The translations under genes and the position numbers were made by a program. Below are positions 32,116 to 58,460 of a DNA stretch of 64,000 nucleotides, in pieces (position 1 is the stretch's first letter; each line of letters begins with the position of its first letter). Where the stretch lies: contig JBKOZS010000054.1 of the NCBI GenBank assembly GCA_046726015.1, positions 460 through 64,459 on the forward strand, given 5' to 3'. The stretch comes from Acidobacteriota bacterium. Its GTDB lineage: Bacteria; Acidobacteriota; Vicinamibacteria; Vicinamibacterales; 2-12-FULL-66-21. The notes beneath the pieces are model-generated. The model was not told the DNA's origin. It saw only the letters and a list, made by a program, of their open reading frames with translations, and searched no databases.

Positions 32116-32121
32116 TATAAT
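32116..32121 (+). promoter_or_regulatory. candidate -10 box TATAAT of the hrcA operon
   Basis: A perfect TATAAT lies 3 nt upstream of the CIRCE element. I saw no convincing -35. Confidence 0.5.
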
Positions 32122-32124
32122 GAC

Positions 32125-32151
32125 TTAGCACTCCCCGGCGGCGAGTGCTAA
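32125..32151 (+). promoter_or_regulatory. CIRCE operator (HrcA binding site)
   Basis: TTAGCACTC-cccggcggc-GAGTGCTAA is a perfect match to the TTAGCACTC-N9-GAGTGCTAA consensus. It ends 6 nt upstream of the hrcA ATG. Confidence 0.93.
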
Positions 32152-32157
32152 GTATCC

Positions 32158-33198
32158 ATGACCCGACATCCTGAGCTACCCGAACGAGATAGACGAATTC
32201 TCGCGGCGCTGGTGCAGGCCTATATCGAACACGGCGAGCCGATCTCGTCCCTCTGGCTCGCCAGCCGCGGCTTTGGTGTGTCCTCGGCCACGCTTCGCAA
32301 CGTGATGGCCCGGCTCGAGGAGCAGGGCTACGTACGTCAGCCGCACACGTCGGCCGGTCGCGTGCCAACCGACATGGGGTATCGCAGTTACGTCGACCAG
32401 TTGATGGCCGAGCGCAGGAGCGCGCGGCCTGCGCCGGAGGTCGAAGAACGGCTGCGGCGCGCGGGCACCGTGGACGATGTGCTGTCACATGCGTCCCACG
32501 AGATTTCGCGCGCGTCGCACCAGGTCGGGTTCGCGATTGCGCCCGCGACGGACGTGACGTTCGAGCATCTCGATTTCGTCCTGCTCGAGGCGCGCAAGAT
32601 CCTCGTCGTGCTCATCTCGGCCGGCGGCCAGATCTCGCACAAGGTGATCGAGCCCAGCGAGCCCTACGAACGCGAGGAACTGCAGCAGGCGGCGAACTAC
32701 ATCAATGCGGAGTTCAAGGGAAGGACCCTCAGCGAACTGCGTCAGAGCGTGATGGAGCTCCTTCGAGAGGAACGCACGCTGTACGACCAGTTGATGGCGC
32801 GCGCATTGCGTCTCGCAAGCACGACGTTCGAGGGACTCGAACCGCAGCCGTCGATCTACATCATGGGCACATCGCTGTTGCTCGACATCGCTGGCTCGGA
32901 CGATCCTGAGACGACGTTGGCAACCATGCGGACGCTCGTGCGCATGATGGAAGAGAAGACGCGGCTCGTCCAGTTGATCGACGCGTGCATGGATGGCACG
33001 GGATTGACCGTGGTCATCGGATCGGAACATCGCGACCCGGACCTGCAGCGCTTCAGCGTCGTGACATCGACCTATACCGACGGCCGCCGCACGGGTACCG
33101 TCGGGATCATCGGCCCGACGCGGATGCGGTACTCGCGAACGATCAACGTCGTGGACAGCTTGTCGCGAGTCATCAACAAGGTCCTCGAAAAATCGTAA
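32158..33198 (+). CDS. hrcA: heat-inducible transcription repressor HrcA
   Basis: 346 aa. N-terminal winged-helix region (RDRRILAALVQAYIEHGEPISS) and the CIRCE/grpE/dnaJ context. Confidence 0.95.
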   Translation: MTRHPELPERDRRILAALVQAYIEHGEPISSLWLASRGFGVSSATLRNVMARLEEQGYVRQPHTSAGRVPTDMGYRSYVDQLMAERRSARPAPEVEERLRRAGTVDDVLSHASHEISRASHQVGFAIAPATDVTFEHLDFVLLEARKILVVLISAGGQISHKVIEPSEPYEREELQQAANYINAEFKGRTLSELRQSVMELLREERTLYDQLMARALRLASTTFEGLEPQPSIYIMGTSLLLDIAGSDDPETTLATMRTLVRMMEEKTRLVQLIDACMDGTGLTVVIGSEHRDPDLQRFSVVTSTYTDGRRTGTVGIIGPTRMRYSRTINVVDSLSRVINKVLEKS

Positions 33199-33204
33199 GA
33201 AGCC

Positions 33205-33729
33205 ATGCAAGACGACGAACTGAACGATTCATCCGAACAGGCGGCGGCCGCAACCGAGAGCGCCCCCGGCGAGCCTGACCTCAACGTGGCGGAGCTCCAG
33301 CAACAGCGCGACCAGTTCTACGATCGCCTGCTGCGGAAAACTGCGGAGTTCGACAACTATCGCAAGCGCATCGAGCGCGAGCGCGTGCAGCAGGCCGAAG
33401 CGGCCGCCGCAGATCTCCTCGAAGAACTGCTCCCGCTCGTGGACGATCTCGAGCGCGCGCTCAGGGCTGACGCCGGCTCCGAGGGGGCCGACGCGTATCG
33501 ACGCGGCGTGGAGTTGATCCATCGCCAGCTGCTGGAGGTGCTGCGCAAGCGCGGCGTCCGTCCGATCGAATCACTCGGCGCTGATTTCGACCCGCACTTT
33601 CACCAGGCGGTCGCGCACGAGTCTGCCCAGGGACACCGCGAAGGTGAAGTGACCGAGGAATTCCGTCGGGGCTACATGCTGGGCGACCGGCTGCTGCGTC
33701 CCGCGATGGTGAAGGTGGCGAAAGGGTGA
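33205..33729 (+). CDS. grpE: nucleotide exchange factor GrpE
   Basis: 174 aa. Has ..FDNYRKRIERE.. and the C-terminal FDPHFHQAV..GYML.DRLLRPAMV block. Confidence 0.95.
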   Translation: MQDDELNDSSEQAAAATESAPGEPDLNVAELQQQRDQFYDRLLRKTAEFDNYRKRIERERVQQAEAAAADLLEELLPLVDDLERALRADAGSEGADAYRRGVELIHRQLLEVLRKRGVRPIESLGADFDPHFHQAVAHESAQGHREGEVTEEFRRGYMLGDRLLRPAMVKVAKG

Positions 33730-35706: not shown

Positions 35707-35712
35707 GAGGCG

Positions 35713-35763
35713 AATGCCAAACTTTCGTGATTCGGCATTTGGCATTTGACATTCGACATTGAC
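35713..35763. repeat. hairpin (AATGCCAAA 35713-35721 / TTTGGCATT 35738-35746) merging into tandem heptamers TYGRCAT
   Basis: TTCGGCA TTTGGCA TTTGACA TTCGACA TTGAC, read directly in the spacer between convergent prmA and rsmE. Confidence 0.75.
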
Positions 35764-35798
35764 CCGGCGCCTCAGGCGATCAGCCGCGGCGCCTCTCT

Positions 35799-36539
35799 CT
35801 ACAGGTCCGACCACAGGAACTGCAGCACGCCAATCGCGACGATCGCGAGCGCGTCGGCGCGCAGCGTGCGGCGGCCGAGCGTAATCGGCACCCATCCCGC
35901 GCGCACGGCCGTCTCGATCTCTTCCGGCGCCCAGCCCCCTTCTGGTCCCACGAGCAGCGTTGATGAGGCCGGGCGTCGTCCCTGCAACGCCGCGACGGGA
36001 TGCCCTTCAACGCTGACGCTGGGTTCAACCAGCATCAACCGCATCTCGGCGTTGTCCTGGACGATCAATTCGTCGAACGGCGTGCCATTGCCAATCACCG
36101 GGAGAACGGCGCGCCGGCACTGTTTTGCCGACGCCACGGCAATGCGGCGCCAGCGATCGGCCGCCTGCCCTTCCGTGAGCGCTTTCATACGGACCGTGGT
36201 ATGCGCGGTGACGACCGGCTCGATTGCCGCCACGCCCATCATCGTGGCGTCGCGGACGACCTCTTCCATCTTCTCCCCTTTGAGTACCGCCTGCGCGAGC
36301 GTGAGCCGCACGACCGGCTCCGGCGCTGCGCTGATCTCTTCGAGAAGGTGCACGGAGGCCCCTTCACGGCTGACGCGCTCGATGCGCGCCCGGTACTCGC
36401 GGCCGTTGCCATCGAACACGGCAATCTCGTCGCCGAAGCGCAGCCGAAGTACGTTGGTGAGGTGATGCGTTTCCTCGGCAGAGAGCGACGCCGTGTTGGA
36501 AGCGGGATCGAGGTCGGTGGCCAGGAACCGCGGGAGCAT
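35799..36539 (-). CDS. rsmE: 16S rRNA (uracil1498-N3)-methyltransferase RsmE
   Basis: MLPRFLATDL.. start (ATG 36539; alternative ATG 36551). C-terminal LLVGPEGGWAPEEIE...LGRRTLRA block. The track ORF start at 36629 is an upstream extension. Confidence 0.85.
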   Translation of the reverse strand: MLPRFLATDLDPASNTASLSAEETHHLTNVLRLRFGDEIAVFDGNGREYRARIERVSREGASVHLLEEISAAPEPVVRLTLAQAVLKGEKMEEVVRDATMMGVAAIEPVVTAHTTVRMKALTEGQAADRWRRIAVASAKQCRRAVLPVIGNGTPFDELIVQDNAEMRLMLVEPSVSVEGHPVAALQGRRPASSTLLVGPEGGWAPEEIETAVRAGWVPITLGRRTLRADALAIVAIGVLQFLWSDL

Positions 36540-36549
36540 GGGGGTGGCC

Positions 36550-36555
36550 ATTATA
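36550..36555 (-). promoter_or_regulatory. candidate -10 box TATAAT, 10 nt upstream of rsmE ATG 36539
   Basis: Minus strand reads ctcTATAATggccacccccATG. No Shine-Dalgarno sequence lies in between. Confidence 0.4.
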
Positions 36556-36595
36556 GAGTGGGGCCAGAACTCCCGACGAGGGCGCAAGAATCCGC

Positions 36596-36601
36596 TATAC
36601 T
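36596..36601 (+). promoter_or_regulatory. candidate -10 box TATACT, 10 nt upstream of the kinase TTG start
   Basis: gcTATACTcaacgcacacTTG. It forms a compact divergent pair with the rsmE -10 box 40 bp away. Confidence 0.35.
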
Positions 36602-36611
36602 CAACGCACAC

Positions 36612-37598
36612 TTGCTCTTCAAGGGACAAACGCTAGGGAAGTACAAGATCATCGCGCCGCTCGGCAGCGGCGGGTTTGGTACTGTCTACCTTGCACAGGA
36701 CACCTGGATCGACAAGAAGGTTGCGATCAAGGTGCCGCACCGGCAGGGGCTCGACTTCGGTGAACTGCTTCGCGAGCCTCGCCTGCTGGCGTCCGTCAGT
36801 CATCCCAACATCGTCGCGATCACCACGGCGGAGAAGCAGGACAACGTCTTCTTCATCGTGATGGAGTACGTGCAGGGAGAAACGCTCGAGAACATCATTG
36901 CCCTGCGCGGCTCGCTCGAGCTGAACCGGGCGCTCGATTTCACCTGCCAGATCTGCAACGCGGTCGATCACGCGCACCGGCAGGGCGTCATCCATCGCGA
37001 CCTGCGTCCCGCGAACGTGCTCGTCACGGAACACGACATGCTGAAGGTTGCCGACTTCGGCACGTCGCGCTTCCTGGAAATCGCCGCGCACGGCACCACG
37101 GTGATCGGCAGTCCGCCCTACATGGCACCCGAACAGTTTCATGGCAAGGCGGTGTTCGCGTCGGACCTCTACTCGCTGGGCGTGACGATGTACCAGATGC
37201 TCACGGGGCTGCTGCCGTACGACACACCGGCGCCGGCGGACCTGGACAAGCTGATGTCAGGGGAGCTGGTCTCGCCGCCGCGGCTCAAGAATCCGTCGAT
37301 TCCCAAGCCAATCAGCGACATCGTCATGAAGGCGATGGCGCCGGACCCGTCGCAACGGTACCAGCGCGCGACCGACCTCATGGAAGACGTGCTCGCCGCG
37401 AGGAACGCGACACGAACGCCGCCCGCTGGCGCCCTGGCCCGCCCCGCCGCGGGCCCGCGCGCAGGACGCGACGATGCACAGAGCATTCAGAGCCGGTTGC
37501 GCGCGCGAGAGGCGCCCGCCGCCCGCTTCTGCTGGCACTGCCGCAAGCCGCTGCACGCGCGCACGAACCGCTGCCCCTTCTGCGGCGAGAAGCAGTAG
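36612..37598 (+). CDS. Ser/Thr protein kinase (canonical Hanks type) with C-terminal zinc-ribbon
   Basis: LGSGGFGTVY, VAIKVP, HRDLRPANVLV, DFGTSR and YMAPEQ are all present. C-terminal CWHCRKPL..CPFCG. The only upstream in-frame start not overlapping rsmE is TTG 36612. The track ORF from 36000 is an antisense extension over rsmE. Confidence 0.85.
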   Translation: MLFKGQTLGKYKIIAPLGSGGFGTVYLAQDTWIDKKVAIKVPHRQGLDFGELLREPRLLASVSHPNIVAITTAEKQDNVFFIVMEYVQGETLENIIALRGSLELNRALDFTCQICNAVDHAHRQGVIHRDLRPANVLVTEHDMLKVADFGTSRFLEIAAHGTTVIGSPPYMAPEQFHGKAVFASDLYSLGVTMYQMLTGLLPYDTPAPADLDKLMSGELVSPPRLKNPSIPKPISDIVMKAMAPDPSQRYQRATDLMEDVLAARNATRTPPAGALARPAAGPRAGRDDAQSIQSRLRAREAPAARFCWHCRKPLHARTNRCPFCGEKQ

Positions 37599-37630
37599 GT
37601 GACGCAGCTCGCACTACCACCGACTGTTTC

Positions 37631-37696
37631 GCGGAGAGGCCGGTTCGGAGAGGACGGCTAATTGTTTTTAAAACAAAATAGACCTGATCTCTCCGC
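37631..37696. terminator. inverted repeat GCGGAGAG (37631-37638) / CTCTCCGC (37689-37696) around an AT-rich near-palindrome TTGTTTTTAAAACAA; candidate bidirectional terminator
   Basis: Read directly in the 132-nt spacer between the convergent kinase gene and the giant gene. A further GAGAGG unit lies at 37647-37654. Confidence 0.5.
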
Positions 37697-37730
37697 GCTC
37701 ACCGTGGAAACAGGCGCTGCGATTCAACTC

Positions 37731-43927: not shown

Positions 43928-43953
43928 GGGCTCGAGGCTCAGGGCTCAGAGCC
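43928..43953. repeat. GGCTCRG heptamer units (GGGCTCGAGGCTCAGGGCTCAGAGCC)
   Basis: Read directly. Same unit family as 19129-19245 and 59679-59723. Confidence 0.7.
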
Positions 43954-44040
43954 GGGACACTCACACTTAATCCCACAAACGGGACGAAGCGTGACTGTCC
44001 CCCTTTCGGATCCCCCGCATCCGCACCGTCCGTGACCAGA

Positions 44041-44077
44041 GAGACTCGGGATTCGGGACTCAGGACTCCTCGGGACC
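44041..44077. repeat. GAYTCRG heptamer units (GAGACTCGG GATTCGG GACTCAG GACTCCT CGGGACC)
   Basis: Read directly in the HMBD/ilvE divergent spacer. Confidence 0.7.
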
Positions 44078-44189
44078 ACCCCACGCTTGGCACTGTGCGG
44101 AAACGCCGGGGGTGGTTAAGATGGAGAAGGCTCGAACTATGCGACCGAGCCCGCGTGTGGGGCGAAGCCCCAGTGATAAGGAGCGTTAG

Positions 44190-45170
44190 ATGGCGTTTCC
44201 CGGCACCGGCAAAATCTGGATGAACGGCTCGCTCGTGGACTGGGCCGACGCAAAGATCCATATCGCCTCGCACGTGGTGCACTACGGCAGCGGCGTGTTC
44301 GAAGGGGCGCGGTGCTACGAGACGCCGCGCGGCACGGCGTGCTTCCGCCTCGATGCGCACCTGCGGCGGCTGTTCGACTCGGCCAAGATCTATCGGATGG
44401 AACCTACGCTCACCTATGCGGAACTGCACGACGCGGTCCTGACCACGATCCGGGCAAACGACTTCAAAGCGTGCTATCTGCGTCCCCTCGTGTATCGCGG
44501 CTACCACACGCTCGGCGTGAACCCGTTCCCCTGCCCTGTCGACACGGCGATTCTCGCGTGGGAATGGGGGGCGTATCTCGGCCAGGACGCGCTCACGAAC
44601 GGCGTCGACGTCTGCGTGAGCTCGTGGGCGCGCGCCGCTCCCAACACCTTCCCGACACTGGCGAAGACAACGGCCAACTACGCCAACTCGCAGTTGATCA
44701 AGATGGAGGCGATCGCCGAGGGCTACAGCGAGGGCATCGCGCTCGACAGCGGCGGCTATCTCAGCGAAGGCAGCGGCCAGAATCTGTTCATCGTGCGCGA
44801 CAACACGCTGTACACGCCGCCGCTCACGGCGTCGATCCTTCCGGGTATCACGCGGAATTCCGTCATCACGCTCGCGAAGGACCTCGGGTTCCGCGTGCGT
44901 GAAGAAATGCTGCCGCGCGAACTGCTCTACATCGCTGACGAGGCATTCTTCGTCGGAACCGCCGTCGAAATCACGCCGATTCGCTCGGTCGACAAGATTA
45001 CGGTTGGGAACGGCCGCCGCGGCCCGATGACCGAATCGATCCAGCAGGCCTTCTTCGACGTGATCAACGGCGAGGTCGCCGACCGGCATGGATGGCTGGA
45101 GTACGTCTACCCTGGCGAGCCCCGCCAGGCCGCCACGCCGGTCGCCAGGACAACGGCTGCCGAGAAATAG
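44190..45170 (+). CDS. ilvE: branched-chain amino acid aminotransferase (class IV)
   Basis: 326 aa. Has ..HYGSGVFEGARCY.., the ..GYSEGIALD.. and LYTPP...ILPGITR blocks. AAGGAG lies 6 nt upstream of the ATG. Confidence 0.95.
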   Translation: MAFPGTGKIWMNGSLVDWADAKIHIASHVVHYGSGVFEGARCYETPRGTACFRLDAHLRRLFDSAKIYRMEPTLTYAELHDAVLTTIRANDFKACYLRPLVYRGYHTLGVNPFPCPVDTAILAWEWGAYLGQDALTNGVDVCVSSWARAAPNTFPTLAKTTANYANSQLIKMEAIAEGYSEGIALDSGGYLSEGSGQNLFIVRDNTLYTPPLTASILPGITRNSVITLAKDLGFRVREEMLPRELLYIADEAFFVGTAVEITPIRSVDKITVGNGRRGPMTESIQQAFFDVINGEVADRHGWLEYVYPGEPRQAATPVARTTAAEK

Positions 45171-46429: not shown

Positions 46430-46716
46430 TCTTCCTCCTTGCAAACTGATATTCAGCTCGAGAGTACGTAAGTACCGGGCGTTCGGCCTAGCCGTTGAGG
46501 AACGAGCATTGCTGCGATCGATGCCCGACCAGTCGTCGCTGCGGATTCAGTGCGCTTGAGGCGTACTGAATGACGACGACCGGGCGCAGGAGTTACTCGC
46601 TCCCACCCGGCAGCATCCACAACACCATGGGTTTCGCGAGCGTGCCGGCATGCGCGCGTACTCATGCGTATCGACGTGTCGCATCTTTTTGGATCGACAC
46701 TCTGGAGCCTCAACCT

Positions 46717-47724
46717 ATGCGTATTCTCACGCGCATGGCGGCTGCATTCAGCCTTGCCATGGCCCTCGGGTTCTTGTCTAAGCCTGTTACACCACTGGTT
46801 GCGCCAGTCCAAGCGGCCACGTCCGCTGGATGCGAAGGCGGTGGATTCTCAATCGTGTTGCCTGGAGGGACGACGCTCGCCGGCGACGTCGATACGAGCG
46901 TCCCGGCGTCGAGCCTCGGTTCGAGCTTCCTCGTCAGAGGCAAGTACGTCGAGTTCAATGTCGTCTCGGCAACGTTTGGCATCACCAACTACACGTTCAC
47001 CGGCGCCCCAAATCCGCTGGACATGACCGGTGGTGTGCGCACGCCCGTATTTGCGCGCAAGACGCCAGACCATCGCGGTCTGTCGTTGACGAATGCGATG
47101 ACCGCGGAATTGAAGGACGGAGATGTCGTGATCGAGAGAAGCGGACCCGGATTGGACATGAAGATCCAGGCCAAGGATTGTGCGAACGGCGGCCTCTTCC
47201 AGATGGAACCCCAGCGCGCTGATGGAACCCAGACTGACATCACGCACGTGCTCGCGACAGCAACTGGGGCCGAGGGCGCCAACCTGACGGTGTTCTATTT
47301 CGACAATCCGAACTTCCGCGCACGCGAAGGCGACGTGGTCCCCTTCAAGGACACGACGATCGTAGTACCGTCACGGATCAACTTCGCGAACGACTTCTCG
47401 CCGAAGTTCGTGGGTCGGGACAGTCCGCAAGTTGCGACGCGCATCGCGCAAGGCTGCCCGAACCAGATTCAAAAGCGCGACGGCACGTTCGTGACCGTCG
47501 ATCATTGCGGCGGCGTGTCCGTGTGGCGTGTCGCCAGCGGCGGCCGGATGGGCGCAGTGTTTGGTGAAGATGCGACCGAGGTTTCCCCACCCGCGACGGT
47601 GTGCACGCAGAACTGCCAGGCGCAAAACCGCGTCAGAGGGCAGGCCGTCGTCCTTGGATTTCCGTTCCCCGTGCAAGATAACGTTCGTCTGAAGCCACGT
47701 TTCCCCGCCGGCTTCCAGCCGTAA
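46717..47724 (+). CDS. secreted hypothetical protein (no family recognised)
   Basis: ATG 46717 is preceded by GGAG. Signal peptide MRILTRMAAAFSLAMALGFLSKPVTPLVAPVQA. 7 Cys in the mature part. The coding-like GC3-rich frame is continuous to 47724. Confidence 0.7.
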   Translation: MRILTRMAAAFSLAMALGFLSKPVTPLVAPVQAATSAGCEGGGFSIVLPGGTTLAGDVDTSVPASSLGSSFLVRGKYVEFNVVSATFGITNYTFTGAPNPLDMTGGVRTPVFARKTPDHRGLSLTNAMTAELKDGDVVIERSGPGLDMKIQAKDCANGGLFQMEPQRADGTQTDITHVLATATGAEGANLTVFYFDNPNFRAREGDVVPFKDTTIVVPSRINFANDFSPKFVGRDSPQVATRIAQGCPNQIQKRDGTFVTVDHCGGVSVWRVASGGRMGAVFGEDATEVSPPATVCTQNCQAQNRVRGQAVVLGFPFPVQDNVRLKPRFPAGFQP

Positions 47725-47787
47725 CAGGCCGAACGGAGGTTGCGCGCATTTCCGGTTGCGCGCACCTTGCGAGGCGGCCTGTAAAAT
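47724..47787 (+). promoter_or_regulatory. recX upstream element: 8-bp inverted repeat ACAGGCCG/CGGCCTGT enclosing two direct GGTTGCGCGCA repeats, abutting a TAAAAT -10-like box
   Basis: ACAGGCCG 47724-47731. GGTTGCGCGCA at 47738-47748 and 47754-47764. CGGCCTGT 47775-47782. TAAAAT 47782-47787, 9 nt before the recX ATG. Confidence 0.45.
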
Positions 47788-47796
47788 AGCCCTTGA

Positions 47797-48267
47797 ATGG
47801 AATCCGCCTATAGCGATGGCCTGCGAATGCTGGCCCGGCGTGAGCTGTCTGCCGCGCAGGTCAGGGCGCGGCTGCTCGAACGTGAGCACGCCGCGGAGGA
47901 GGTCGAGGCCGCGATCGAGCAATTGCAGGAGAGCGGCGCGATCGACGACGCGCGGGTGGCGCGCGCCTATGTTGAAACGGCGCTGAAGGTCAAAAACCGG
48001 GGACGCCTGCGCATCCAGCGCGAGCTGAACGAAATGGGAATTCCCCGCGAGGTCGCGGCCGCGGCCCTCGCCGATGCGTTCGGGGAGGTCGACGAGCGCG
48101 GCCTGATCGCCAAGGCGATCACGAAAAAACTGCACGGCCGAAAAAAGATCGACACGCCCGCCGAATACGCGCGAGTCTACCAGTTCCTCATGCGCCAGGG
48201 CTTCTCGCCCGCCGCCGTCAGCGCCGCGCTGCGCGCCTACCGCAAGGGAGCCGATCCGCTAGAATAA
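47797..48267 (+). CDS. recX: RecA regulator RecX
   Basis: 156 aa. Repeated helical RecX-type modules (..LLERGYLDD-like: LQESGAIDDARVARAYVE). Position directly upstream of alaS, as in many bacteria. Confidence 0.8.
   Translation: MESAYSDGLRMLARRELSAAQVRARLLEREHAAEEVEAAIEQLQESGAIDDARVARAYVETALKVKNRGRLRIQRELNEMGIPREVAAAALADAFGEVDERGLIAKAITKKLHGRKKIDTPAEYARVYQFLMRQGFSPAAVSAALRAYRKGADPLE
48260..48265 (+). promoter_or_regulatory. candidate -10 box TAGAAT, 6 nt upstream of the alaS ATG (inside the recX 3' end)
   Basis: gcTAGAATaactggATG. No Shine-Dalgarno sequence. Confidence 0.35.
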
Positions 48268-48271
48268 CTGG

Positions 48272-50971
48272 ATGGAGTCGCGCGAAATTCGCAGTAGTTT
48301 CCTCAAGTATTTCGAGAAGAACCGGCACACGATCGTGCCCAGTTCCTCGCTCGTCCCCGCCGACGATCCGACCCTGCTCTTCACCAACGCAGGCATGAAC
48401 CAGTTCAAGGACGTGTTCCTCGGGCGCGAGAAGCGGCCGTACAAGCGCGCGACGACGGCGCAAAAGTGCATGCGCGTCAGCGGCAAGCACAACGACCTCG
48501 ACAATGTCGGCCCGTCGCTTCGGCATCACACGTTCTTCGAAATGCTGGGGAACTTCTCGTTCGGCGACTACTTCAAGGCCGAGGCGATCCCATTCGCGTG
48601 GGAGCTCCTGACGAAGGTCTGGAATCTCCCGGCCGACCGACTCTTCGCAACGATCTTCAAGGGAGAAGCCGGCATCCCGCGCGACGACGAGGCTTACAAG
48701 ATCTGGCAGCAGTTCCTGCCCGTCGAACGCATCTCGGAGCTCGGTCTCGCGGAGAACTTCTGGCAGATGGGTGACACCGGGCCGTGCGGCCGCTGCTCGG
48801 AGATCCACTATTTCCGCGGCAACCACGTTCCGTGTGAAGAGGACCAGCGCGGGAATGCCTGCCGGGGCCTCGACTGCAGCTGCGATCGCTACGTCGAGAT
48901 CTGGAACAACGTGTTCATGGAGTTCGACCGGCAGCAGGACGGGACGCTGAATCCGCTGCCGGCGCCATCGATCGACACGGGGATGGGGCTGGAGCGGATC
49001 ACCGCGGTGATCCAGGGGAAGTTGTCGAACTACGACACCGACCTCTTTACTCCGATTCTCGAGGCCATTGCGGAGCGCGCGGGGCGTACCTATGGCGCGA
49101 CACTCGACGATCCCCCGGATGTCTCAATGCGCGTGATCGGGGATCACCTGCGGGCGATGACGTTCCTCATCGCGGACGGCGTGGTGCCCTCGAACGAATG
49201 GCGCGGCTACGTCCTGCGGAAGATCATGCGCCGCGCGATGCGTCACGGCAAAAAGCTTGGCATCACCCAGCCCTTCCTGCACTCGCTGGTCGACGTCATC
49301 GTTGCCGAGATGGGTGCCGCGTATCCCGAACTGCGCAGCGGGCGCGACGCGATCGTCCAGGTGGTGCGAAGCGAAGAGGAGCGCTTCGACGCGGTGCTCA
49401 CCGCCGGCTTGCCACGTCTCGAAGAAGTGCTGGATCGCGCAGCGGCCGGGTCGAAGGTGGTGCCGGGGGACGAGGCGTTTCGCCTCTACGATTCACTGGG
49501 TGTGCCGCTCGATTTCATGGAGGACCTGGCGGGCCAGCGCGGCCTGACGATCGACCGTGAAGCCTACGAGCGCGCGATGGAGGGGCAGCGGGAGCGCGCG
49601 CGCGCCGGCAGTGCGTTCAAAGGGAAAGCCACCGATATGCTCTGGCAGACACGAGGTGGCCTTGAACGTGAGCTCGCGGCCGTGGGTGACAACTTCGAAG
49701 GGTACGATCGGACACGAGTCGACGGCGCTCGCGTACTCGGAGTTTTTGACGAGCGCGGAGTTGAAGTAGGAGAGCTGAGTGCGGGTCAACGAGGGTTCAT
49801 TGCCTTAACGAGCACTCCCTTTTATCTCGAGGCTGGTGGACAGGTTTCCGATCGTGGATGGATCACTGGAGTTAACTCCGAAGCTGTGGTTGAGGGAATC
49901 ACACGGTTCCCCAGCTGGCCTCGCCTGCATGCCGTGCTGGTCGAGAGCGGGGTAATCAAGCAGCGCGATATTGTCAGCGCGATCGTCGCGACCGACGTGC
50001 GCGACGCGACACGGCGAAATCACACGGCAACACACCTGCTCCACGCCGCGCTTCGCCAGGTGCTTGGCACGCACGTGAAGCAGGCCGGATCGCTGGTGGC
50101 GCCAGATCGGCTCCGCTTTGACTTCGTCCACTTCTCCGCCATTTCGCGCGAGCAACTCGATCAGATCGAGCGGATCGTGAACGAGCAAATCTATCGGAAT
50201 ACGCCGGTGCAAACGGAACTGCGATCGACGGAAGAAGCGATCGCTGCCGGCGCGATGGCGTTGTTCGGCGAGAAGTACGGCGACCGTGTACGCGTCGTGT
50301 CGGTGCCGGGCTTCAGTCTCGAATTGTGTGGCGGCACGCACGTGCGTGCGACCGGAGACATCGGTCCGTTCGTGATTACTCAGGAAGGGGGCGTTGCCGC
50401 GGGCGTACGCCGAATCGAGGCGCTGACCGGTGCGGGCGCGGTCGCCTTTCACCAGCAACAACGCGCGGCCCTCGATCGCATGCTGACCACGTTGAACACG
50501 ACTGCCGATCAGAGTGTCGACGCCGTGCAGCGCCTGCAATCGGACGCGCGACGGCTCGCGCGCGAAGTCGAGCAGTTGAAAATGAAGGCGGCGCTCGGCG
50601 GCTCCCGAGGAGATTCCGCTGCACACGAGGACACGCACGATGTGAACGGCGTCAAGGTCATTGCCCGCCACGTGTCGGGACTCGAAAAGGGCGCGCTGCG
50701 CGGACTCGCGGACTCGCTACGCGATCGGCTCGGAAGCGGGATCGTCGTCATTGCGTCCGAGACCGACGGCAAGGTCGCACTCGTGGTGTCGGTCACCAAA
50801 GATCTCACCGGCCGCATCCAGGCCGGACGGATCGTCAAGGAGATCGCGCCCATCGTCGGGGGAGGCGGCGGCGGCCGGCCGGACTTCGCTGAAGCCGGAG
50901 GCAAAGATCCGTCGAAGATCGACGATCTGATTCGCCAGGCGCCCGCGGCAATCGCGTCGCTTCTGGGCTGA
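48272..50971 (+). CDS. alaS: alanine--tRNA ligase
   Basis: 899 aa. Starts MESREIRSSFLKYFEKNRHTIVPSSSLVP.DDPTLLFTNAGMNQFK. Editing-domain HTATHLLH..CGGTH and a DHHA1 C-terminus. Confidence 0.97.
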   Translation: MESREIRSSFLKYFEKNRHTIVPSSSLVPADDPTLLFTNAGMNQFKDVFLGREKRPYKRATTAQKCMRVSGKHNDLDNVGPSLRHHTFFEMLGNFSFGDYFKAEAIPFAWELLTKVWNLPADRLFATIFKGEAGIPRDDEAYKIWQQFLPVERISELGLAENFWQMGDTGPCGRCSEIHYFRGNHVPCEEDQRGNACRGLDCSCDRYVEIWNNVFMEFDRQQDGTLNPLPAPSIDTGMGLERITAVIQGKLSNYDTDLFTPILEAIAERAGRTYGATLDDPPDVSMRVIGDHLRAMTFLIADGVVPSNEWRGYVLRKIMRRAMRHGKKLGITQPFLHSLVDVIVAEMGAAYPELRSGRDAIVQVVRSEEERFDAVLTAGLPRLEEVLDRAAAGSKVVPGDEAFRLYDSLGVPLDFMEDLAGQRGLTIDREAYERAMEGQRERARAGSAFKGKATDMLWQTRGGLERELAAVGDNFEGYDRTRVDGARVLGVFDERGVEVGELSAGQRGFIALTSTPFYLEAGGQVSDRGWITGVNSEAVVEGITRFPSWPRLHAVLVESGVIKQRDIVSAIVATDVRDATRRNHTATHLLHAALRQVLGTHVKQAGSLVAPDRLRFDFVHFSAISREQLDQIERIVNEQIYRNTPVQTELRSTEEAIAAGAMALFGEKYGDRVRVVSVPGFSLELCGGTHVRATGDIGPFVITQEGGVAAGVRRIEALTGAGAVAFHQQQRAALDRMLTTLNTTADQSVDAVQRLQSDARRLAREVEQLKMKAALGGSRGDSAAHEDTHDVNGVKVIARHVSGLEKGALRGLADSLRDRLGSGIVVIASETDGKVALVVSVTKDLTGRIQAGRIVKEIAPIVGGGGGGRPDFAEAGGKDPSKIDDLIRQAPAAIASLLG

Positions 50972-51910: not shown

Positions 51911-51967
51911 CGCGTATCGCCGCACATCGCGCCTCGCGCACATCGCACCTCGCGCATCGCGCCTCGC
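51911..51967. repeat. tandem CGCRCMT heptamer array
   Basis: CGCGTAT CGC CGCACAT CGCGCCT CGCGCACAT CGCACCT CGCGCAT CGCGCCT CGC, read directly. Confidence 0.75.
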
Positions 51968-51968: not shown

Positions 51969-51974
51969 TAAAAT
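51969..51974 (+). promoter_or_regulatory. candidate -10 box TAAAAT, 6 nt upstream of the S4-domain gene ATG
   Basis: cgctTAAAATcactgaATG. No Shine-Dalgarno sequence. Confidence 0.35.
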
Positions 51975-51980
51975 CACTGA

Positions 51981-52361
51981 ATGCGATTGGACGTCTGGCT
52001 CGACGTCAGTTGTCTCTTCAAGACCCGGAGCGAGGCGCAGAAGGCCTGCAAGGGAGGCAAGGTCGACGTGAACGGCCAGGCCGCCAAGCCACATCGTGAA
52101 GTGGCACCCGGTGATGAGATCGAGATTACGCGTACGTTTGGAAGACGCCAGAAGGTGATCGTGAAGGGACTGGCCGAGCAGCACGTCCCCAGGGCGGAGG
52201 CGCGCCTGCTTTACGAGGATCTGACGCCAAAGCCAACAGCGGAAGAGCTCGAGATGCTCCGCATTGCGCGTCTGGCGGCGCCGTTTACGCGTCCGGCATC
52301 AGCGGGCGCACCGGACCGCCGGGAGCGTCGCATGCTGCGGCGCCTCAAAGGGCGCGGCTGA
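51981..52361 (+). CDS. RNA-binding S4-domain protein (Hsp15/HslR-like)
   Basis: 126 aa. Starts MRLDVWLDVSCLFKTRSEAQKACKGGKVDVNGQAAKP (S4 fold). Basic C-terminal tail. Confidence 0.8.
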   Translation: MRLDVWLDVSCLFKTRSEAQKACKGGKVDVNGQAAKPHREVAPGDEIEITRTFGRRQKVIVKGLAEQHVPRAEARLLYEDLTPKPTAEELEMLRIARLAAPFTRPASAGAPDRRERRMLRRLKGRG

Positions 52362-52366
52362 ACCGA

Positions 52367-52525: not shown

Positions 52526-52798
52526 ATGGCTAGTCACGCTTCAGCACTCAAGGCCCACCGTCAGAACATCGTCCGCCGCGAGGCGAACCGCCAGCTCCGC
52601 AGCCGCCTTCGTGGCGCGCTCCGAAGCATCCGCGCCGCCATCGACGCCGGGGATCCGGCGCAGGTCAAGGACGCGCTCCGCAGCACAATCTCGCTGGTCG
52701 ACAAGATGGCGGGCAAGCGCGTGATTCACCGCAACGCCGCCGCGCGCTACAAGTCGCGGCTTGCGAAGCGGGTGACGAAGAAGACCGCCACGGCGTAA
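52526..52798 (+). CDS. rpsT: 30S ribosomal protein S20
   Basis: 90 aa. Starts MASHASALKAHRQNIVRREANRQLRSRLR.. Basic helical protein typical of bS20. Confidence 0.95.
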   Translation: MASHASALKAHRQNIVRREANRQLRSRLRGALRSIRAAIDAGDPAQVKDALRSTISLVDKMAGKRVIHRNAAARYKSRLAKRVTKKTATA

Positions 52799-52835
52799 CG
52801 CGCCCGGCCTGAATCTCCGCGCTCGCTGCCCGACA

Positions 52836-53864: not shown

Positions 53865-53867
53865 TCA

Positions 53868-53933
53868 GATCCGTGTTATCCGTGAGATCCGCGGCTGTGA
53901 TCCGTGTGTTTCGGTGATCCGTGTGATCCGTGG
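53868..53933. repeat. six copies of (G)ATCCGYG filling the lptE-holA spacer
   Basis: GATCCGTGT TATCCGTGA GATCCGCGGCTGT GATCCGTGTGTTTCGGT GATCCGTGT GATCCGTGG. Confidence 0.85.
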
Positions 53934-54464: not shown

Positions 54465-57010
54465 TGCACCACGATGCTGACAAGCCGTCCGTTCGCCACG
54501 ACCACCTTCTTCACCGTGCGCCCCTGCAGGTGCGTGCGGATCTGCGGCTCGGCGAGCGCGGTTTCACGCAACTGTTCCTCGGTCGTGTCCGTCGGAACCG
54601 TGATCCGGCCGCGGAGCTTCCCGTTGATCTGAACCGGAACCACGATCTCCTCGGCTCTTGCGACCGATTCATCGTACGCAGGCCAGCCGGCGGCCGTAAT
54701 CCCGCCCGAGTGTCCGAGGCCTTCCCACAGCTCCTCTGCCATGTGCGGGACGAACGGGGACAGCATCAGCACCAGCGCTTCGATCGACTCCTTCAGCACG
54801 GCAATCGTGCCCGGCCGCTCGATGACCCCCACGTGATCCGATTCCTCGCCAGCCGGGCCGCATTGCGTACGACTGCAGAACGCGTACAACTCGTTGACGA
54901 GCTCCATCATCGCAGAGACCGCCGTGTTCAAATGGACGCGAGGGTCCAGATCGTGCGTGACCCGCTTGATGGTCTGGTGCGTCTTGCGGCGTAGCGCACG
55001 TTCCTCGTCATTGAGCTCGACGTCCGACGGCCCTGGAATCCCCAGTCCGCCAATCGTCTCGCTCAGCGAGTCCACGAGCCGCCAGACACGCGCCAGGAAC
55101 CGGAAGCTCCCTTCGAGCCCCGCATCGTTCCACTCGATCTCTTTCTCGGGCGGCGCCACGAAGATGACATAGAGCCGCAGGGCGTCCGCGCCGTACTTCT
55201 GGATCATGTCGTCGGGATCGACCACGTTTCCCTTGGACTTGGACATGACCTGGCCATTCTTCAGCACCATCCCTTGCGTCAGCAGACGATCGAACGGCTC
55301 GCTCAGGTGCGTCATCCCGAGGTCGCGAAACACGCGCGTGAAGAAACGCGAATAAATCAGGTGGAGGATCGCGTGCTCCACGCCTCCGACATAAAAGTCG
55401 ACCGGGCCCCAGTACCCGACCGTCACCGGATCGAACGGCAACTGGTCGTTGTGCGGATCGCAGAAGCGGAAGAAGTACCACGACGAGTCGACGAACGTGT
55501 CCATCGTGTCCGTCTCGCGGCGCGCCGGGCCGCCGCACTCCGGGCACGTCGCGTTCACGAACTCGGGGATCTGTGCGAGCGGGGAATCTCCACGCCCGGA
55601 GAATTCCGCCGTCTTCGGCAGTTCGACCGGCAGCTGGTCGTACGGCACCGGAACCATGCCGTCCTTCTCGCAGTAGAGCACTGGAATCGGGGTGCCCCAG
55701 TAGCGCTGACGCGAAATGCCCCAGTCCTTCAAACGGTATTGCACGGTGCCACGGCCGATGCTCCGCTTCTCGGCCGCTTCCGTCATGCGGCGGTTGGCCT
55801 CTTCCCAGTCGAGTCCGTTGAACTCACCCGACGCCACCAGTTTTCCCGCGCCCGGTTTGGCTTCGGTCATGGTTGCCGCGTCGAGCGGTTCACCGTCCGG
55901 CTGAACGACGATGGTAATCGGCAGCGCGTATTTCCGCGCGAACTCGAAATCGCGCTGATCGTGTCCGGGGACACCCATGACGGCGCCCGTGCCGTACTCG
56001 ATCAGGACGAAGTTCGCGATCCAGATCGGAACCGCCTGGCCGGTGAACGGATTGATTGCGCGGCGGCCGGTGTCGAAGCCTTCCTTTTCGACTTCCCCTT
56101 GCATGCGCGCGGAGCGATCCTGCGAGGTGAACTTCGCCACCTTCGCGCGGAATGCTTCCGGATCAGGCGAGCCGTCCGCGAACTCTCGGACGAGCGGATG
56201 CTCCGGAGCAACCACGATGAAGTTCGCGCCGTAGATGGTGTCGATCCGCGTCGTGAACACCTCGATGCCACCAGGCTGCGGCGTCGGTCGTCCACCGTCA
56301 GGGGCGAGCGGGAACGTGACGAACGCCCCGGCCGACCGTCCCACCCAGTTGCGCTGCATGGTGAGGACCTTGTCCGGCCACTCTCCCAGCAGCTCCATGC
56401 CATCGAGCAGTTCGTCGGCGTAGTGCGTGATGCGGAAGAACCACTGCTCCAGCTCGCGCGTGACGACCGGCGTGCCGCACCGCCAGCAGCCGCCGTTCAC
56501 GACCTGCTCGTTTGCCAGCACGGTCTGGCAGCTCGGACACCAGTTCACGCTGGACCGTTTGCGATACGCAAGGTCCCGCTCCAGCATCTTGAGGAAGATC
56601 CACTGGTTCCACTTGTAGTACTCGGGCAGGCAGGTGGCGATCTCGCGCTCCCAGCCGTAGCTGATGCCGATACGCTGGAGCTGCCCCTTCATGTGCGCGA
56701 TGTTCTGGAGCGTCCAGGCCTCCGGGTGCGTCCGGTTCTTGATCGCGGCGTTCTCGGCCGGCAGGCCGAACGCGTCCCATCCGAACGGGTGCAGGACGTT
56801 GAAGCCGCGCATCCGCTTCATGCGCGCGATGACGTCGCCGATCATGTAATTGCGCAGGTGACCGACGTGCGCGTGACCCGACGGGTACGCGAACATCTCG
56901 AGGCAGTAGTACTTCGGCTTCGAGGGGTCCTCCGTCACCTCGAACGCGCGCTCGGCAGTCCAGCAGTCCTGCCACTTCTTCTCGATAGCCTGGGGCTTGT
57001 AGTCGGGCAC
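54461..57010 (-). CDS. leuS: leucine--tRNA ligase
   Basis: 849 aa. HVGH (HIGH-type) motif in [19 protein letters not shown]-type VMSKSKGN, and the CP1 editing domain. GTG start. Confidence 0.97.
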
Positions 57011-57019
57011 GATCCTTAA

Positions 57020-57025
57020 ATTATA
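57020..57025 (-). promoter_or_regulatory. candidate -10 box TATAAT, 9 nt upstream of the leuS GTG start
   Basis: Minus strand reads gacgaTATAATttaaggatcGTG. Confidence 0.4.
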
Positions 57026-57140
57026 TCGTCAGTCCGTCATGCGGCTCGGAGCGAGAACGGTGTGTCGTTGCGCGAGCCGCAACGGAACTGGCGCGCCACG
57101 GGCGCGCCGGGGGGTCCGGCGGGGCGAAGCCCCGGTCTGA

Positions 57141-58043
57141 TTAGAAAAGCGCAACCGTGGCGTCGAGGCAGGCTCCGAGCGCGTCGAGGTCGTACCCTCC
57201 TTCGGTCACGAAGGCGATCGGGCAGTGTCGATCGGCAACGGTCTTGAGATGAGCGACGATCGCCGCGTAGCCTTCCGTGGTCACGCGCATCGAGGCGAGC
57301 GGGTCGTCGGCATGCGCGTCGTAGCCGGCGGACACGAGCAGCAGCTCGGGTGCGAACTCGTCGAGCCTGCCGACAATGGTCTTGTACGCCCGGTCGTACA
57401 CAGCGTCCGTGGCTCCAGCCGCAAGCGGCACGTTCATCGTGTAGCCCTTCCCGGGTCCTCTGCCGACTTCATCCGCCGCACCGGTGCCAGGATAGAACGG
57501 AAACTGATGGGTCGATACGTAAAGGACGCGGGGATCGTCGTAGAACATCCACTGCGTTCCGTTGCCGTGATGCACGTCGATGTCGACCACTGCGACACGC
57601 GACAGGCCGCGTGCGATCGCCGCGGCTGCCGCGACGGCGACGTTGTTGAACAGGCAGAACCCCATCGCCCGGTCCCGTTCGGCGTGATGCCCGGGCGGCC
57701 TCACAAGCGCAAAGGCGGGCTTCCGAGTCTCGAGCGCGTGTTCCATCGCCTGCACGGCCGCGCCAGCCGCGAGCAGCGCGATGTCATACGACTCTGGCGA
57801 TGTGAAGGTGTCCGGATCGAGCATCACTGCGCGGCCCGCCGTCGCCGTAATCGCGTTGATGTAGGCCGAATCGTGAACGCGCGCCAGCTCTTCGCGCGTC
57901 GCGGATCGGGGCTCGATGACCCGCACGCCCTTCTCCTTCCAGCGAGAGGCAACCTCGCTGAACACGCGGGCGCGCTCGGGACGCTCGGGATGGCCGGGTG
58001 GCGTCGTGTGTTCCTCGAAGCGTTCAGAAGCAATGAATAGCAT
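57141..58043 (-). CDS. histone deacetylase-family (class II HDAC/AcuC/Aph-like) deacetylase
   Basis: ATG 58043 gives MLFIASERFEEHTTPPGHPERPERARV.. Has ..RPPGHHAE.., DIDVHHGNGTQ and ..VSAGYDAH.. The track start at 58112 is an upstream extension. Confidence 0.9.
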   Translation of the reverse strand: MLFIASERFEEHTTPPGHPERPERARVFSEVASRWKEKGVRVIEPRSATREELARVHDSAYINAITATAGRAVMLDPDTFTSPESYDIALLAAGAAVQAMEHALETRKPAFALVRPPGHHAERDRAMGFCLFNNVAVAAAAAIARGLSRVAVVDIDVHHGNGTQWMFYDDPRVLYVSTHQFPFYPGTGAADEVGRGPGKGYTMNVPLAAGATDAVYDRAYKTIVGRLDEFAPELLLVSAGYDAHADDPLASMRVTTEGYAAIVAHLKTVADRHCPIAFVTEGGYDLDALGACLDATVALF

Positions 58044-58055
58044 CGCCGATCGCCG

Positions 58056-58061
58056 TATACT
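58056..58061 (+). promoter_or_regulatory. candidate -10 box TATACT, 9 nt upstream of the response-regulator ATG
   Basis: ccgTATACTctgaagacaATG, within the 27-nt HDAC/REC divergent spacer. Confidence 0.35.
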
Positions 58062-58070
58062 CTGAAGACA

Positions 58071-58460
58071 ATGGTACTGGAAGCCCCGGCGGATAGTACA
58101 GCCCGGGTTCACCGTATTCTGGTGGTTGACGACGACGAGACGCTGCTCGACGCTGTCGCCCGGGGGTTACGAGCAGGCGGGCAACTCGTCGTCCCGTGCG
58201 GATCCTTTGAAGCGGCGCGAGAAGTGCTGCGGCAGCAGACCTTCGACGTGCTCATCACCGACGTGCGGCTACGGGCGTCGAACGGCCTGCAACTCGCGAT
58301 TGTCGCGCGCCAGATGAACCCCGCGATGCAGTTGATCGTGTTTTCGGGGTTCGACGACCCGGTGCTCCGCGCGGAGGCCGGCAAGATCGACGCGATGTAT
58401 TTGGTGAAGCCGGTCACCGCTGCGACACTGCTCAAGCTGATCCACGGACAGGAAAGTTAA
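58071..58460 (+). CDS. single-domain response regulator (receiver only)
   Basis: 129 aa. ILVVDDDE, phospho-acceptor context VLITDVRL, VFSG and LVKP are all present. No output domain. Confidence 0.85.
   Translation: MVLEAPADSTARVHRILVVDDDETLLDAVARGLRAGGQLVVPCGSFEAAREVLRQQTFDVLITDVRLRASNGLQLAIVARQMNPAMQLIVFSGFDDPVLRAEAGKIDAMYLVKPVTAATLLKLIHGQES

What the first reader, a model, noticed from the sequence alone, without database searches (positions are those of the whole stretch)
32116..58071. TATAAT-like -10 boxes 6-10 nt upstream of at least seven start codons suggest leaderless or near-leaderless mRNAs
In this GC-rich DNA, near-consensus -10 hexamers sit at a fixed short distance from start codons that lack any Shine-Dalgarno sequence:
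- alaS: TAGAAT, 6 nt, ATG (48260-48265).
- S4-domain gene: TAAAAT, 6 nt, ATG (51969-51974).
- recX: TAAAAT, 9 nt, ATG (47782-47787).
- leuS: TATAAT, 9 nt, GTG (57025-57020, minus strand).
- Receiver gene: TATACT, 9 nt, ATG (58056-58061).
- rsmE: TATAAT, 10 nt, ATG 36539 (36555-36550, minus strand).
- Ser/Thr kinase: TATACT, 10 nt, TTG (36596-36601).
Transcription normally starts about 7 nt after the -10 box, so these mRNAs would have leaders of 0-4 nt. Genes with a clear Shine-Dalgarno sequence in the same window (ilvE AAGGAG, TonB receptor AGGAGG, sugar-binding protein GGGAG) lack such a box. Leaderless translation is well documented in Actinobacteria and Deinococcus. I am not aware that it has been characterised for this lineage.
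Basis: partly seen in the sequence, partly recalled or inferred. Interest (0 to 1): 0.6.

Follow-up and report, generated by a model that had tools for sequence, protein, structure and literature searches.

The report
Leaderless gene starts in soil acidobacterium
In this soil acidobacterial genome about 7-9% of genes, including alaS, leuS and rsmE, have a promoter -10 box only 6-10 bases before the start codon, the known signature of mRNAs made with little or no leader; the pattern is real and conserved in relatives, but this layout was already predicted for the phylum.

Summary
All seven -10-like hexamers are at the stated coordinates and spacers. Six precede ATG or GTG, one precedes TTG, and protein-family profiles and ortholog N-termini support the start codons.

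TANNNT boxes peak sharply 6-9 nt before in-frame ATG/GTG starts: 179 observed against 38.7 expected (Poisson p 3e-60). There is no peak for TTG and none for control AT-rich hexamers. About 280-375 genes (7-9%) carry the signature.

- The peak boxes lie mostly in intergenic DNA.
- They are enriched for the extended -10 TG.
- Their starts are depleted for Shine-Dalgarno cores, which the genome otherwise uses.

In 30 relatives of the same genus, family and order (best-named kin are Vicinamibacterales, Acidobacteriota), the box-to-start layout is kept for alaS (26/28), the kinase (21/29), leuS (18/27) and rsmE (18/28), while the flanks diverge.

No RNA data could be obtained, so transcription starts are inferred. 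Only alaS and the S4 gene (spacer 6) are predicted to be strictly leaderless. The other five probably have leaders of 0-6 nt.

Zheng et al. 2011 predicted 9.7-19.4% leaderless genes in Acidobacteria, and this scan already reported the pattern in another Vicinamibacterales genome. This is a new member of a known kind.

The parts
48260..48274 (+). alaS: TAGAAT, 6-nt spacer, ATG at 48272. Predicted strictly leaderless. The box overlaps the recX stop codon TAA at 48265-48267.
   Evidence: sequence. TIGR00344 alaS, 892 bits, protein residue 5 aligns to profile position 1. TAnAAT lies 6-10 nt before the start in 26 of 28 orthologs across the order, whether or not recX is upstream. ATG at spacer 6 is 6.7x enriched genome-wide.
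51969..51983 (+). S4-domain (Hsp15-like) gene: TAAAAT, 6-nt spacer, ATG at 51981. Predicted strictly leaderless. An in-frame TGA lies directly before the ATG.
   Evidence: Hsp15 profile, E 3e-18; a TANNNT box 5-9 nt before the start in about 8 of 27 orthologs, and degenerate GATAAT, GATAAC or AAGAAT in 4 more.
47782..47799 (+). recX: TAAAAT, 9-nt spacer, ATG at 47797. The leader would be 0-2 nt. An in-frame TGA lies directly before the ATG.
   Evidence: RecX profiles; the box is kept in 4 of 5 genomes of the genus (spacers 8-9) and not beyond it.
57008..57025 (-). leuS: TATAAT, 9-nt spacer TTAAGGATC, GTG at 57010. Predicted leader 0-4 nt.
   Evidence: TIGR00396, 1047 bits, protein residue 4 aligns to profile position 1. 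TATAAT lies 5-10 nt before the start in 18 of 27 genomes and in 14 of 15 family members, with the spacer TTnnGGATC itself conserved. In 5 other genomes the TATAAT lies 25-45 nt upstream.
58056..58073 (+). Receiver-only response regulator: TATACT, 9-nt spacer, ATG at 58071. Predicted leader 0-3 nt.
   Evidence: the receiver domain starts at residue 13-16. TATACT lies 6 nt before the ATG in the one syntenic relative found.
36537..36555 (-). rsmE: TATAAT, 10-nt spacer, ATG at 36539. Predicted leader 0-6 nt. It is one half of a divergent promoter pair.
   Evidence: NF008692, 200 bits, protein residue 3 aligns to profile position 4; a TANNNT box 6-10 nt before the start in 18 of 28 orthologs.
36596..36614 (+). 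Ser/Thr protein kinase: TATACT, 10-nt spacer, TTG at 36612. Near-leaderless at best, with a leader of about 2-4 nt. It is the other half of the divergent pair in the 72-nt rsmE-kinase spacer.
   Evidence: the kinase profile starts at residue 9; a TANNNT box, mostly TATACT, lies 6-14 nt before the orthologous start in 21 of 29 loci. The start is TTG in nearly all loci of the own family and ATG or GTG in the other families. TTG starts show no genome-wide peak.
44178..44192 (+). Contrast case, ilvE: Shine-Dalgarno AAGGAG, 6-nt spacer, ATG at 44190, no proximal -10 box.
32116..32160 (+). Contrast case, hrcA: TATAAT 36 nt before the ATG at 32158, with a CIRCE inverted repeat (32125-32151) in the leader. 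This is a conventional leadered promoter.

Best explanation
The hexamers are genuine -10 elements of housekeeping (sigma-70-type) promoters placed so close to the coding sequence that transcription starts on, or a few bases before, the start codon.

- alaS and the S4 gene have a 6-nt spacer. The A of the ATG falls at the canonical +1 position, the seventh base after the hexamer, so these mRNAs should be strictly leaderless.
- recX, leuS, the receiver gene, rsmE and the kinase have 9-10-nt spacers. They would carry leaders of about 0-6 nt, too short to hold a Shine-Dalgarno site.

Translation would then begin by direct recognition of a 5'-terminal or near-terminal AUG/GUG, as described for leaderless mRNAs of Actinobacteria and Deinococcus.

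This is a second initiation class, about 7-9% of genes in this genome, alongside ordinary GGAGG-type Shine-Dalgarno initiation. For several housekeeping genes it is kept across the whole order.

Shown here: the motif positions, the genome-wide peak, the promoter-like attributes of the boxes, and the conservation. Inferred: the transcription start positions and the mode of translation.
For: - Positional peak. For boxes with at most 2 mismatches, ATG starts give 95, 72, 58, 67 hits at spacers 6-9 against a background of 19. GTG starts give 53, 28, 25 at spacers 6-8 against 14. For at most 1 mismatch, 179 hits are observed against 38.7 expected, p 3e-60.
- Hard lower bound. There is no enrichment at spacers of 5 nt or less (ATG at spacer 5: 0.4x). 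This fits the minimum distance from a -10 box to +1 and does not fit a ribosome-binding element.
- Specificity. Six control TA/AT-rich hexamers without the TANNNT frame are flat; the permuted TANNNT consensus TAATAT peaks more weakly at the same spacing. Only starts beginning with a purine (ATG, GTG) peak; TTG does not.
- Promoter attributes. 241 of about 280 excess boxes have intergenic DNA upstream. The extended -10 TG is present in 16.6% of peak boxes against 4.4% of other boxes, and G at -14 in 0.44 against 0.32, p 2.5e-6. Matches of at least 5/6 to the -35 consensus occur in 4.0% against 0.5%.
- Shine-Dalgarno use. The genome uses GGAGG at spacing 4-7 (97, 119, 109, 75 against about 20). 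Box-proximal starts rarely have such a core: 5.7% against 21%.
- Start codons. recX and the S4 gene have an in-frame stop directly before the ATG. Family profiles and ortholog N-termini begin at the called starts.
- Phylogenetic footprint. The box is kept at a short distance while the flanks diverge: alaS 26/28, kinase 21/29, leuS 18/27, rsmE 18/28.
- A relative. In 800 kb of a same-order genome from another family, ATG starts give 29 hits at spacers 6-9 against 11.6 expected.
- Published predictions agree. TA-led genes make up 9.7-19.4% of genes in 3 of 3 Acidobacteria genomes (PMC3160421). GeneMarkS-2 describes the same 6-8-nt geometry for its group C genomes (PMC6028130).
Against:
- Five of the seven spacers are 9-10 nt, longer than the canonical 6. 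Strict leaderlessness is doubtful for these, and how mRNAs with 1-6-nt leaders would be translated here is unknown.
- The kinase starts with TTG, a class with no genome-wide peak (14 against 10.7 expected, p 0.19).
- The conserved leuS spacer TTnnGGATC contains AGGA/GGA. It could act as a minimal ribosome-binding site if transcription starts further upstream.
- No clear -35 consensus was found.
- The assembly holds no 16S rRNA gene, so the anti-Shine-Dalgarno sequence is assumed.
- The gene calls come from my own crude codon-usage caller. It missed rsmE, for example.
- Part of the Shine-Dalgarno depletion is forced, because the box occupies that position.
Confidence: 0.8

Rival explanations
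1. The proximal -10 boxes are real but secondary or internal promoters. Most of the mRNA would come from upstream promoters as leadered or polycistronic transcripts (for example recX-alaS), and the starts would be translated by coupling, reinitiation or weak non-Shine-Dalgarno initiation.
For: The alaS box overlaps the recX stop codon, and the ATG lies 4 nt after that stop. Thirty-five of the excess boxes lie in same-strand coding sequence. In 5 relatives the leuS TATAAT lies 25-45 nt upstream, so leadered versions of the gene exist.
Against: alaS keeps the box in 26 of 28 orthologs, including those with unrelated upstream DNA. Most of the excess boxes (241) have intergenic DNA upstream. rsmE and the kinase are divergent with only 72 nt between them, which leaves no room for other promoters outside the coding sequences.
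Confidence: 0.12
2. The TA-rich hexamer is not a promoter. It would be a translation signal inside a longer leader, such as an A/U-rich enhancer, an unstructured S1-binding site or a non-Shine-Dalgarno ribosome-binding site like those of Bacteroidetes.
For: It lies at the distance where Shine-Dalgarno sites lie, and Shine-Dalgarno usage in this genome is only moderate.
Against: Control hexamers of the same base composition that lack the TANNNT frame show no peak. The T1, A2 and T6 pattern and the extended TG are features of sigma-70 recognition. There is a sharp lower bound at 6 nt and no peak for TTG starts. The boxes are concentrated at genes with intergenic DNA upstream, not at operon-internal genes.
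Confidence: 0.04
3. Chance or artefact: AT-rich stop codons and intergenic composition, or mis-called start codons, create an apparent association.
For: In-frame TAA/TAG stops inflate spacers that are multiples of 3 when only the first candidate start of an ORF is counted. My gene caller is crude.
Against: The peak is equally strong at spacers 7 and 8, and spacers 0, 3, 12 and 15 are not enriched. The Poisson p is 3e-60. The layout is conserved across the order, and profiles and N-termini support the starts.
Confidence: 0.02

Closest known systems
TA-led (leaderless) genes predicted in Acidobacteria by Zheng et al. 2011 (BMC Genomics 12:361, PMC3160421)
   Same: The same signal: TANNNT with its first T about 12 nt before the start codon, read as a -10 box that implies no 5' UTR. 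The same phylum. A similar share of genes: 9.7-19.4% in that paper, about 7-9% here by a conservative count.
   Different: That study covered three genomes sequenced by 2011. From my own knowledge, none belonged to the class Vicinamibacteria. Here the pattern is shown for a Vicinamibacterales-like assembly, with conservation at the level of individual orthologs across an order. Neither study has experimental transcription starts.
Leaderless transcripts of Actinobacteria and Deinococcus-Thermus (GeneMarkS-2 'group C' genomes, PMC6028130; dRNA-seq in M. tuberculosis and D. deserti as cited there)
   Same: A -10 box 6-8 nt before ATG/GTG starts, no Shine-Dalgarno site, a weak or absent -35, a G-containing extended -10, and coexistence with Shine-Dalgarno-led genes.
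   Different: The share is lower here: about 7-9% of genes, against 25-50% of transcripts in group C genomes. The spacer distribution is broader, roughly flat from 6 to 9 nt with a tail to 12, which suggests many leaders of 1-5 nt. There is no experimental validation.
Earlier report of this scan on another Vicinamibacterales genome (e1-2274397)
   Same: A TANNNT box 6-7 nt before start codons, conserved in relatives, judged to be a known kind.
   Different: A different genome and a different set of genes. Here the whole 6-Mb assembly was tested and the result split by start codon.

Membership tests
Bacterial leaderless (TA-led, 'group C') genes | A sigma-70-type -10 hexamer (TANNNT) ending about 6-8 nt before the start codon | tested here: met
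   The spacer is 6 nt for alaS and the S4 gene, which fits exactly. It is 9-10 nt for the other five, at the edge of the class. Genome-wide enrichment is still 6.5x at spacer 9 and 4x at spacer 10 for ATG starts.
Bacterial leaderless (TA-led, 'group C') genes | A genome-wide positional peak of the motif relative to start codons, above background and controls | tested here: met
   179 hits against 38.7 expected, p 3e-60. The six control hexamers without the TANNNT frame are flat.
Bacterial leaderless (TA-led, 'group C') genes | No Shine-Dalgarno sequence at those starts, while other genes use one | tested here: met
   GGAGG peaks at spacing 4-7; 5.7% against 21% of starts have a Shine-Dalgarno core, p 3e-6. 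Part of this is forced by the box occupying the site.
Bacterial leaderless (TA-led, 'group C') genes | The start codon is AUG or GUG, a purine that can serve as the initiating nucleotide | tested here: inconclusive
   Six of the seven sites meet this. The kinase uses TTG. Genome-wide, ATG and GTG peak and TTG does not. The kinase orthologs in other families use ATG or GTG.
Bacterial leaderless (TA-led, 'group C') genes | The mapped transcription start coincides with the first base of the start codon | not testable with these tools
I found no acidobacterial transcription-start study in the paper library.
Bacterial leaderless (TA-led, 'group C') genes | Translation that depends on a 5'-terminal start codon and not on a leader | not testable with these tools
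   This needs reporter or toeprint experiments.

The most novel reading that the evidence does not exclude
In Vicinamibacterales a fixed set of housekeeping genes (alaS, leuS, rsmE and a conserved Ser/Thr kinase) has been held in a leaderless or 1-6-nt-leader layout across order-level divergence. This includes a near-leaderless mRNA that starts with TTG and a leuS spacer (TTnnGGATC) conserved at the base level. On this reading the layout is not just compact promoter placement. It would mark a dedicated regulatory class, for example genes translated selectively under stress or by a specialised ribosome state, with tolerance for very short leaders and non-AUG starts beyond what is known from Actinobacteria.
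Probability: 0.12. Interest if true: 0.55.

Novelty: new member of a known kind. Interest (0 to 1): 0.3.

Why it matters
For annotation: gene finders that assume a Shine-Dalgarno site will misplace starts for roughly one gene in twelve in these abundant, mostly uncultured soil bacteria. A model with a leaderless class (GeneMarkS-2 group C type) should be used instead.

For biology: the result extends the computationally predicted acidobacterial leaderless class to another order. It also provides conserved test cases (alaS, leuS, rsmE) for the first experimental transcription-start mapping in the phylum. It does not reveal a new mechanism.

Tried and rejected
No reads were laid, so no transcription starts are available.
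- Rfam and tRNA scans of the window found nothing. No riboswitch or T-box leader competes as an explanation for the aaRS genes.
- The assembly holds no 16S rRNA gene, so the anti-Shine-Dalgarno sequence could not be read. The GGAGG peak implies it is canonical.
- A position matrix found no -35 consensus. There is only a weak excess of 5/6 matches to TTGACA.
- The GeneMarkS-2 supplementary tables were not held, so I could not check how acidobacterial genomes were grouped.
- The stop-codon artefact was considered and rejected: spacers 7-8 peak as well, and spacers 0, 3 and 12 do not.
- An additional candidate, rpsT (TAGCAT 7 nt before the ATG at 52526), was not counted. A better TGGTAGAAT promoter lies 46 nt upstream.
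- My caller merged the kinase ORF over rsmE, so gene-centred counts are approximate. The motif-centred histograms do not depend on the choice of start.
Full report
**Observation**

NCBIfam confirms the gene identities: alaS, leuS, rsmE, recX, an Hsp15-like S4-domain protein, a receiver-only response regulator and a Ser/Thr kinase. In each case the family profile begins within the first few residues of the called protein. For recX and the S4 gene an in-frame TGA lies directly before the ATG, so no longer reading frame is possible.

Two contrast cases were checked. The TATAAT at 32116, which is the finding's start coordinate, belongs to hrcA. It lies 36 nt before the ATG with a CIRCE operator in the leader, so it is an ordinary leadered promoter.

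**Where the window comes from**

- The window lies in a 6.04-Mb, 341-contig assembly with 64.5% G+C, estimated 88% complete.
- The best-named AlaS relatives are Vicinamibacterales, at 60-64% identity. One record labelled Bifidobacteriaceae scores 66% and is probably mislabelled. Other Acidobacteriota follow.
- I therefore treat the organism as an acidobacterium of, or near, the order Vicinamibacterales.

**Genome-wide test**

I called 4346 coding ORFs of at least 100 aa with a self-trained codon-usage model. They cover 83% of the genome. For every TANNNT hexamer I then asked at which distance downstream an in-frame candidate start codon of such an ORF lies. This test does not depend on choosing one start per gene.

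Boxes with at most 1 mismatch to TATAAT give 58, 39, 47, 47 hits at spacers 6-9 against about 12 per position elsewhere. Six control TA/AT-rich hexamers that lack the TANNNT frame show no peak. A permuted consensus that keeps that frame, TAATAT, shows a weaker peak at the same spacing.

Counts by start codon, for boxes with at most 2 mismatches:

| Start codon | Hits at spacers 6, 7, 8, 9 | Background per position |
|---|---|---|
| ATG | 95, 72, 58, 67 | 19 |
| GTG | 53, 28, 25, 16 | 14 |
| TTG | 5, 9, 5, 9 | 6.8 |

- For boxes with at most 1 mismatch, 179 ATG/GTG hits fall at spacers 6-9 against 38.7 expected (Poisson p 3e-60). TTG at spacers 6-10 gives 14 against 10.7 (p 0.19).
- The enrichment starts abruptly at 6 nt. 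ATG at spacer 5 is 0.4x.
- Summed over motif classes the excess is about 300-375 genes.
- Counted per gene, 401 of 4085 genes (9.8%) have such a box, against 123 (3.0%) at a control spacing of 26-29 nt. The net share is about 7%.

**Are the peak boxes promoters?**

- 241 of about 280 excess boxes have intergenic DNA upstream. Only 35 lie in the end of a same-strand gene.
- The extended -10 dinucleotide TG precedes 16.6% of peak boxes, against 4.4% of other TANNNT. G at -14 is 0.44 against 0.32 (p 2.5e-6).
- No -35 consensus appears in the position matrix. Matches of at least 5/6 to TTGACA are only slightly enriched, 4.0% against 0.5%. From my own knowledge, weak -35 elements are usual in high-G+C bacteria.
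- The genome does use Shine-Dalgarno sites. GGAGG peaks at spacing 4-7 (97, 119, 109, 75 against about 20).
- Box-proximal starts rarely carry a Shine-Dalgarno core: 23/401 against 26/123, odds ratio 0.23, p 3e-6. Part of this is unavoidable, because the box fills that space.

**Conservation in relatives**

I compared orthologous loci in 30 relatives of the same genus, family and order. The box-to-start layout persists while the surrounding sequence diverges.

| Gene | Loci with a proximal box | Notes |
|---|---|---|
| alaS | 26 of 28 | TAnAAT 6-10 nt before the start, with or without recX upstream |
| Ser/Thr kinase | 21 of 29 | A TANNNT box, mostly TATACT, 6-14 nt before the start; TTG in nearly all loci of the own family, ATG/GTG in other families |
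| leuS | 18 of 27 genomes | TATAAT 5-10 nt before the start; 14 of 15 in the own family, with spacer TTnnGGATC also conserved; in 5 other genomes TATAAT lies 25-45 nt upstream |
| rsmE | 18 of 28 | Box 6-10 nt before the start |
| S4 gene | about 8 of 27 | Partial conservation |
| recX | 4 of 5 genomes of the genus | Not kept beyond the genus |
| Receiver gene | 2 of 2 | The own locus and the one syntenic relative found |

The leuS cases with a distant TATAAT show that leadered versions of the gene exist.

An 800-kb sample of a same-order genome from another family shows the same peak, but weaker: ATG at spacers 6-9 gives 29 hits against 11.6 expected.

**Mechanism**

In sigma-70 promoters, +1 is typically the seventh base after the -10 hexamer. 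This is established knowledge, and the GeneMarkS-2 paper describes the same 6-8-nt geometry.

- With a 6-nt spacer, the A of the alaS and S4-gene ATG is that seventh base. These two mRNAs are predicted to be strictly leaderless.
- For the 9-10-nt spacers the canonical position falls on a purine 2-4 nt before the start codon: A7 in leuS, the receiver gene and the kinase. In rsmE the nearest purine is A5. These sites are better described as having leaders of 0-6 nt.

The genome-wide histogram is roughly flat from 6 to 9 nt with a tail to 12 nt. It suggests that such very short leaders are common here.

The transcription starts and the mode of translation are inferences. I could obtain no RNA data, and I found no acidobacterial transcription-start study.

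**Rival explanations**

- Secondary or internal promoters next to leadered transcripts cannot be excluded for alaS, which lies 4 nt after the recX stop. This does not explain the conservation where the upstream DNA is unrelated, or the 72-nt divergent rsmE-kinase spacer.
- A translational A/U-rich element is contradicted by the motif specificity, the TG extension, the hard 6-nt lower bound and the absence of a TTG peak.
- Chance and stop-codon artefacts are excluded by the statistics at spacers 7-8 and by the conservation.

**Comparison with what is known**

- The signature is the one used by Zheng et al. 2011. They found TA-led genes in all 3 Acidobacteria genomes analysed, at 9.7-19.4% of genes.
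- GeneMarkS-2 uses the same signature for its group C genomes.
- This scan has already reported the same pattern in another Vicinamibacterales genome (e1-2274397). My independent tests on this genome agree with that report.

The finding is therefore real, but it is a new member of a known kind. What it adds is whole-assembly statistics split by start codon, and the order-wide retention on named housekeeping genes. The kinase's TTG start and the conserved leuS spacer remain small unexplained details.

Noticed in passing
window 1470-1537, 19132-19242, 35730-35760, 43928-44068, 51921-51967, 53868-53932, 59677-59723; also loci L118, L122, L126, L148, L155, L162, L100: Short tandem repeats, mostly heptamers in 3-10 copies, fill many intergenic spacers. 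One array, the 16-mer CGCACATCGCGCCTCG x3, abuts the -10 box of the S4 gene. Relatives carry different repeat units at the orthologous positions. An earlier report of this scan (e1-2332985) files similar arrays as known intergenic microsatellites.
   Followed up: partly
window 57011-57019 (minus strand); loci L082-L090, L102, L103, L106, L110: The 9-nt spacer between the leuS TATAAT and the GTG (TTAAGGATC, consensus TTnnGGATC) is conserved at the base level across the family. This is unexpected for a mere discriminator. It contains GATC and AGGA, so it could be a minimal ribosome-binding site, a regulatory site or a methylation site.
   Followed up: no
window 36540-36611; loci L141, L142: rsmE and the Ser/Thr kinase are divergent, with back-to-back -10 boxes. 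In two genomes of the same genus the boxes are only 7 nt apart and the start codons 36 nt apart. Each promoter's -35 region must then lie inside the other gene.
   Followed up: partly
window 32116-32160: hrcA has a TATAAT followed by a perfect CIRCE inverted repeat (TTAGCACTC-N9-GAGTGCTAA) in a 36-nt leader. This is classical HrcA autoregulation.
   Followed up: partly
Which one drives the gene is open. The leader is unusually AT-rich and has no Shine-Dalgarno site.
   Followed up: no
window 46570-47724: The 384-aa ORF directly upstream of recX has no NCBIfam match at E below 1e-10, so it is not the expected recA. Its coding score in my caller is also low at the 5' end.
   Followed up: no
locus L001 (CAYNUO010000035.1): The closest named AlaS relative (66% identity) is a metagenome-assembled genome labelled 'uncultured Bifidobacteriaceae'. 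The next hits are Vicinamibacterales, so this is probably a taxonomic mislabel or a binning error.
   Followed up: no
window 58043-58071: A putative deacetylase gene (ATG at 58043, minus strand; function taken from scan note e1-3624969, no NCBIfam match) and the receiver gene (ATG at 58071) are divergent with a 27-nt spacer. Read on the minus strand, the TATACT palindrome core gives TATACG, which is not a good -10 box. The deacetylase promoter is therefore unidentified.
   Followed up: no
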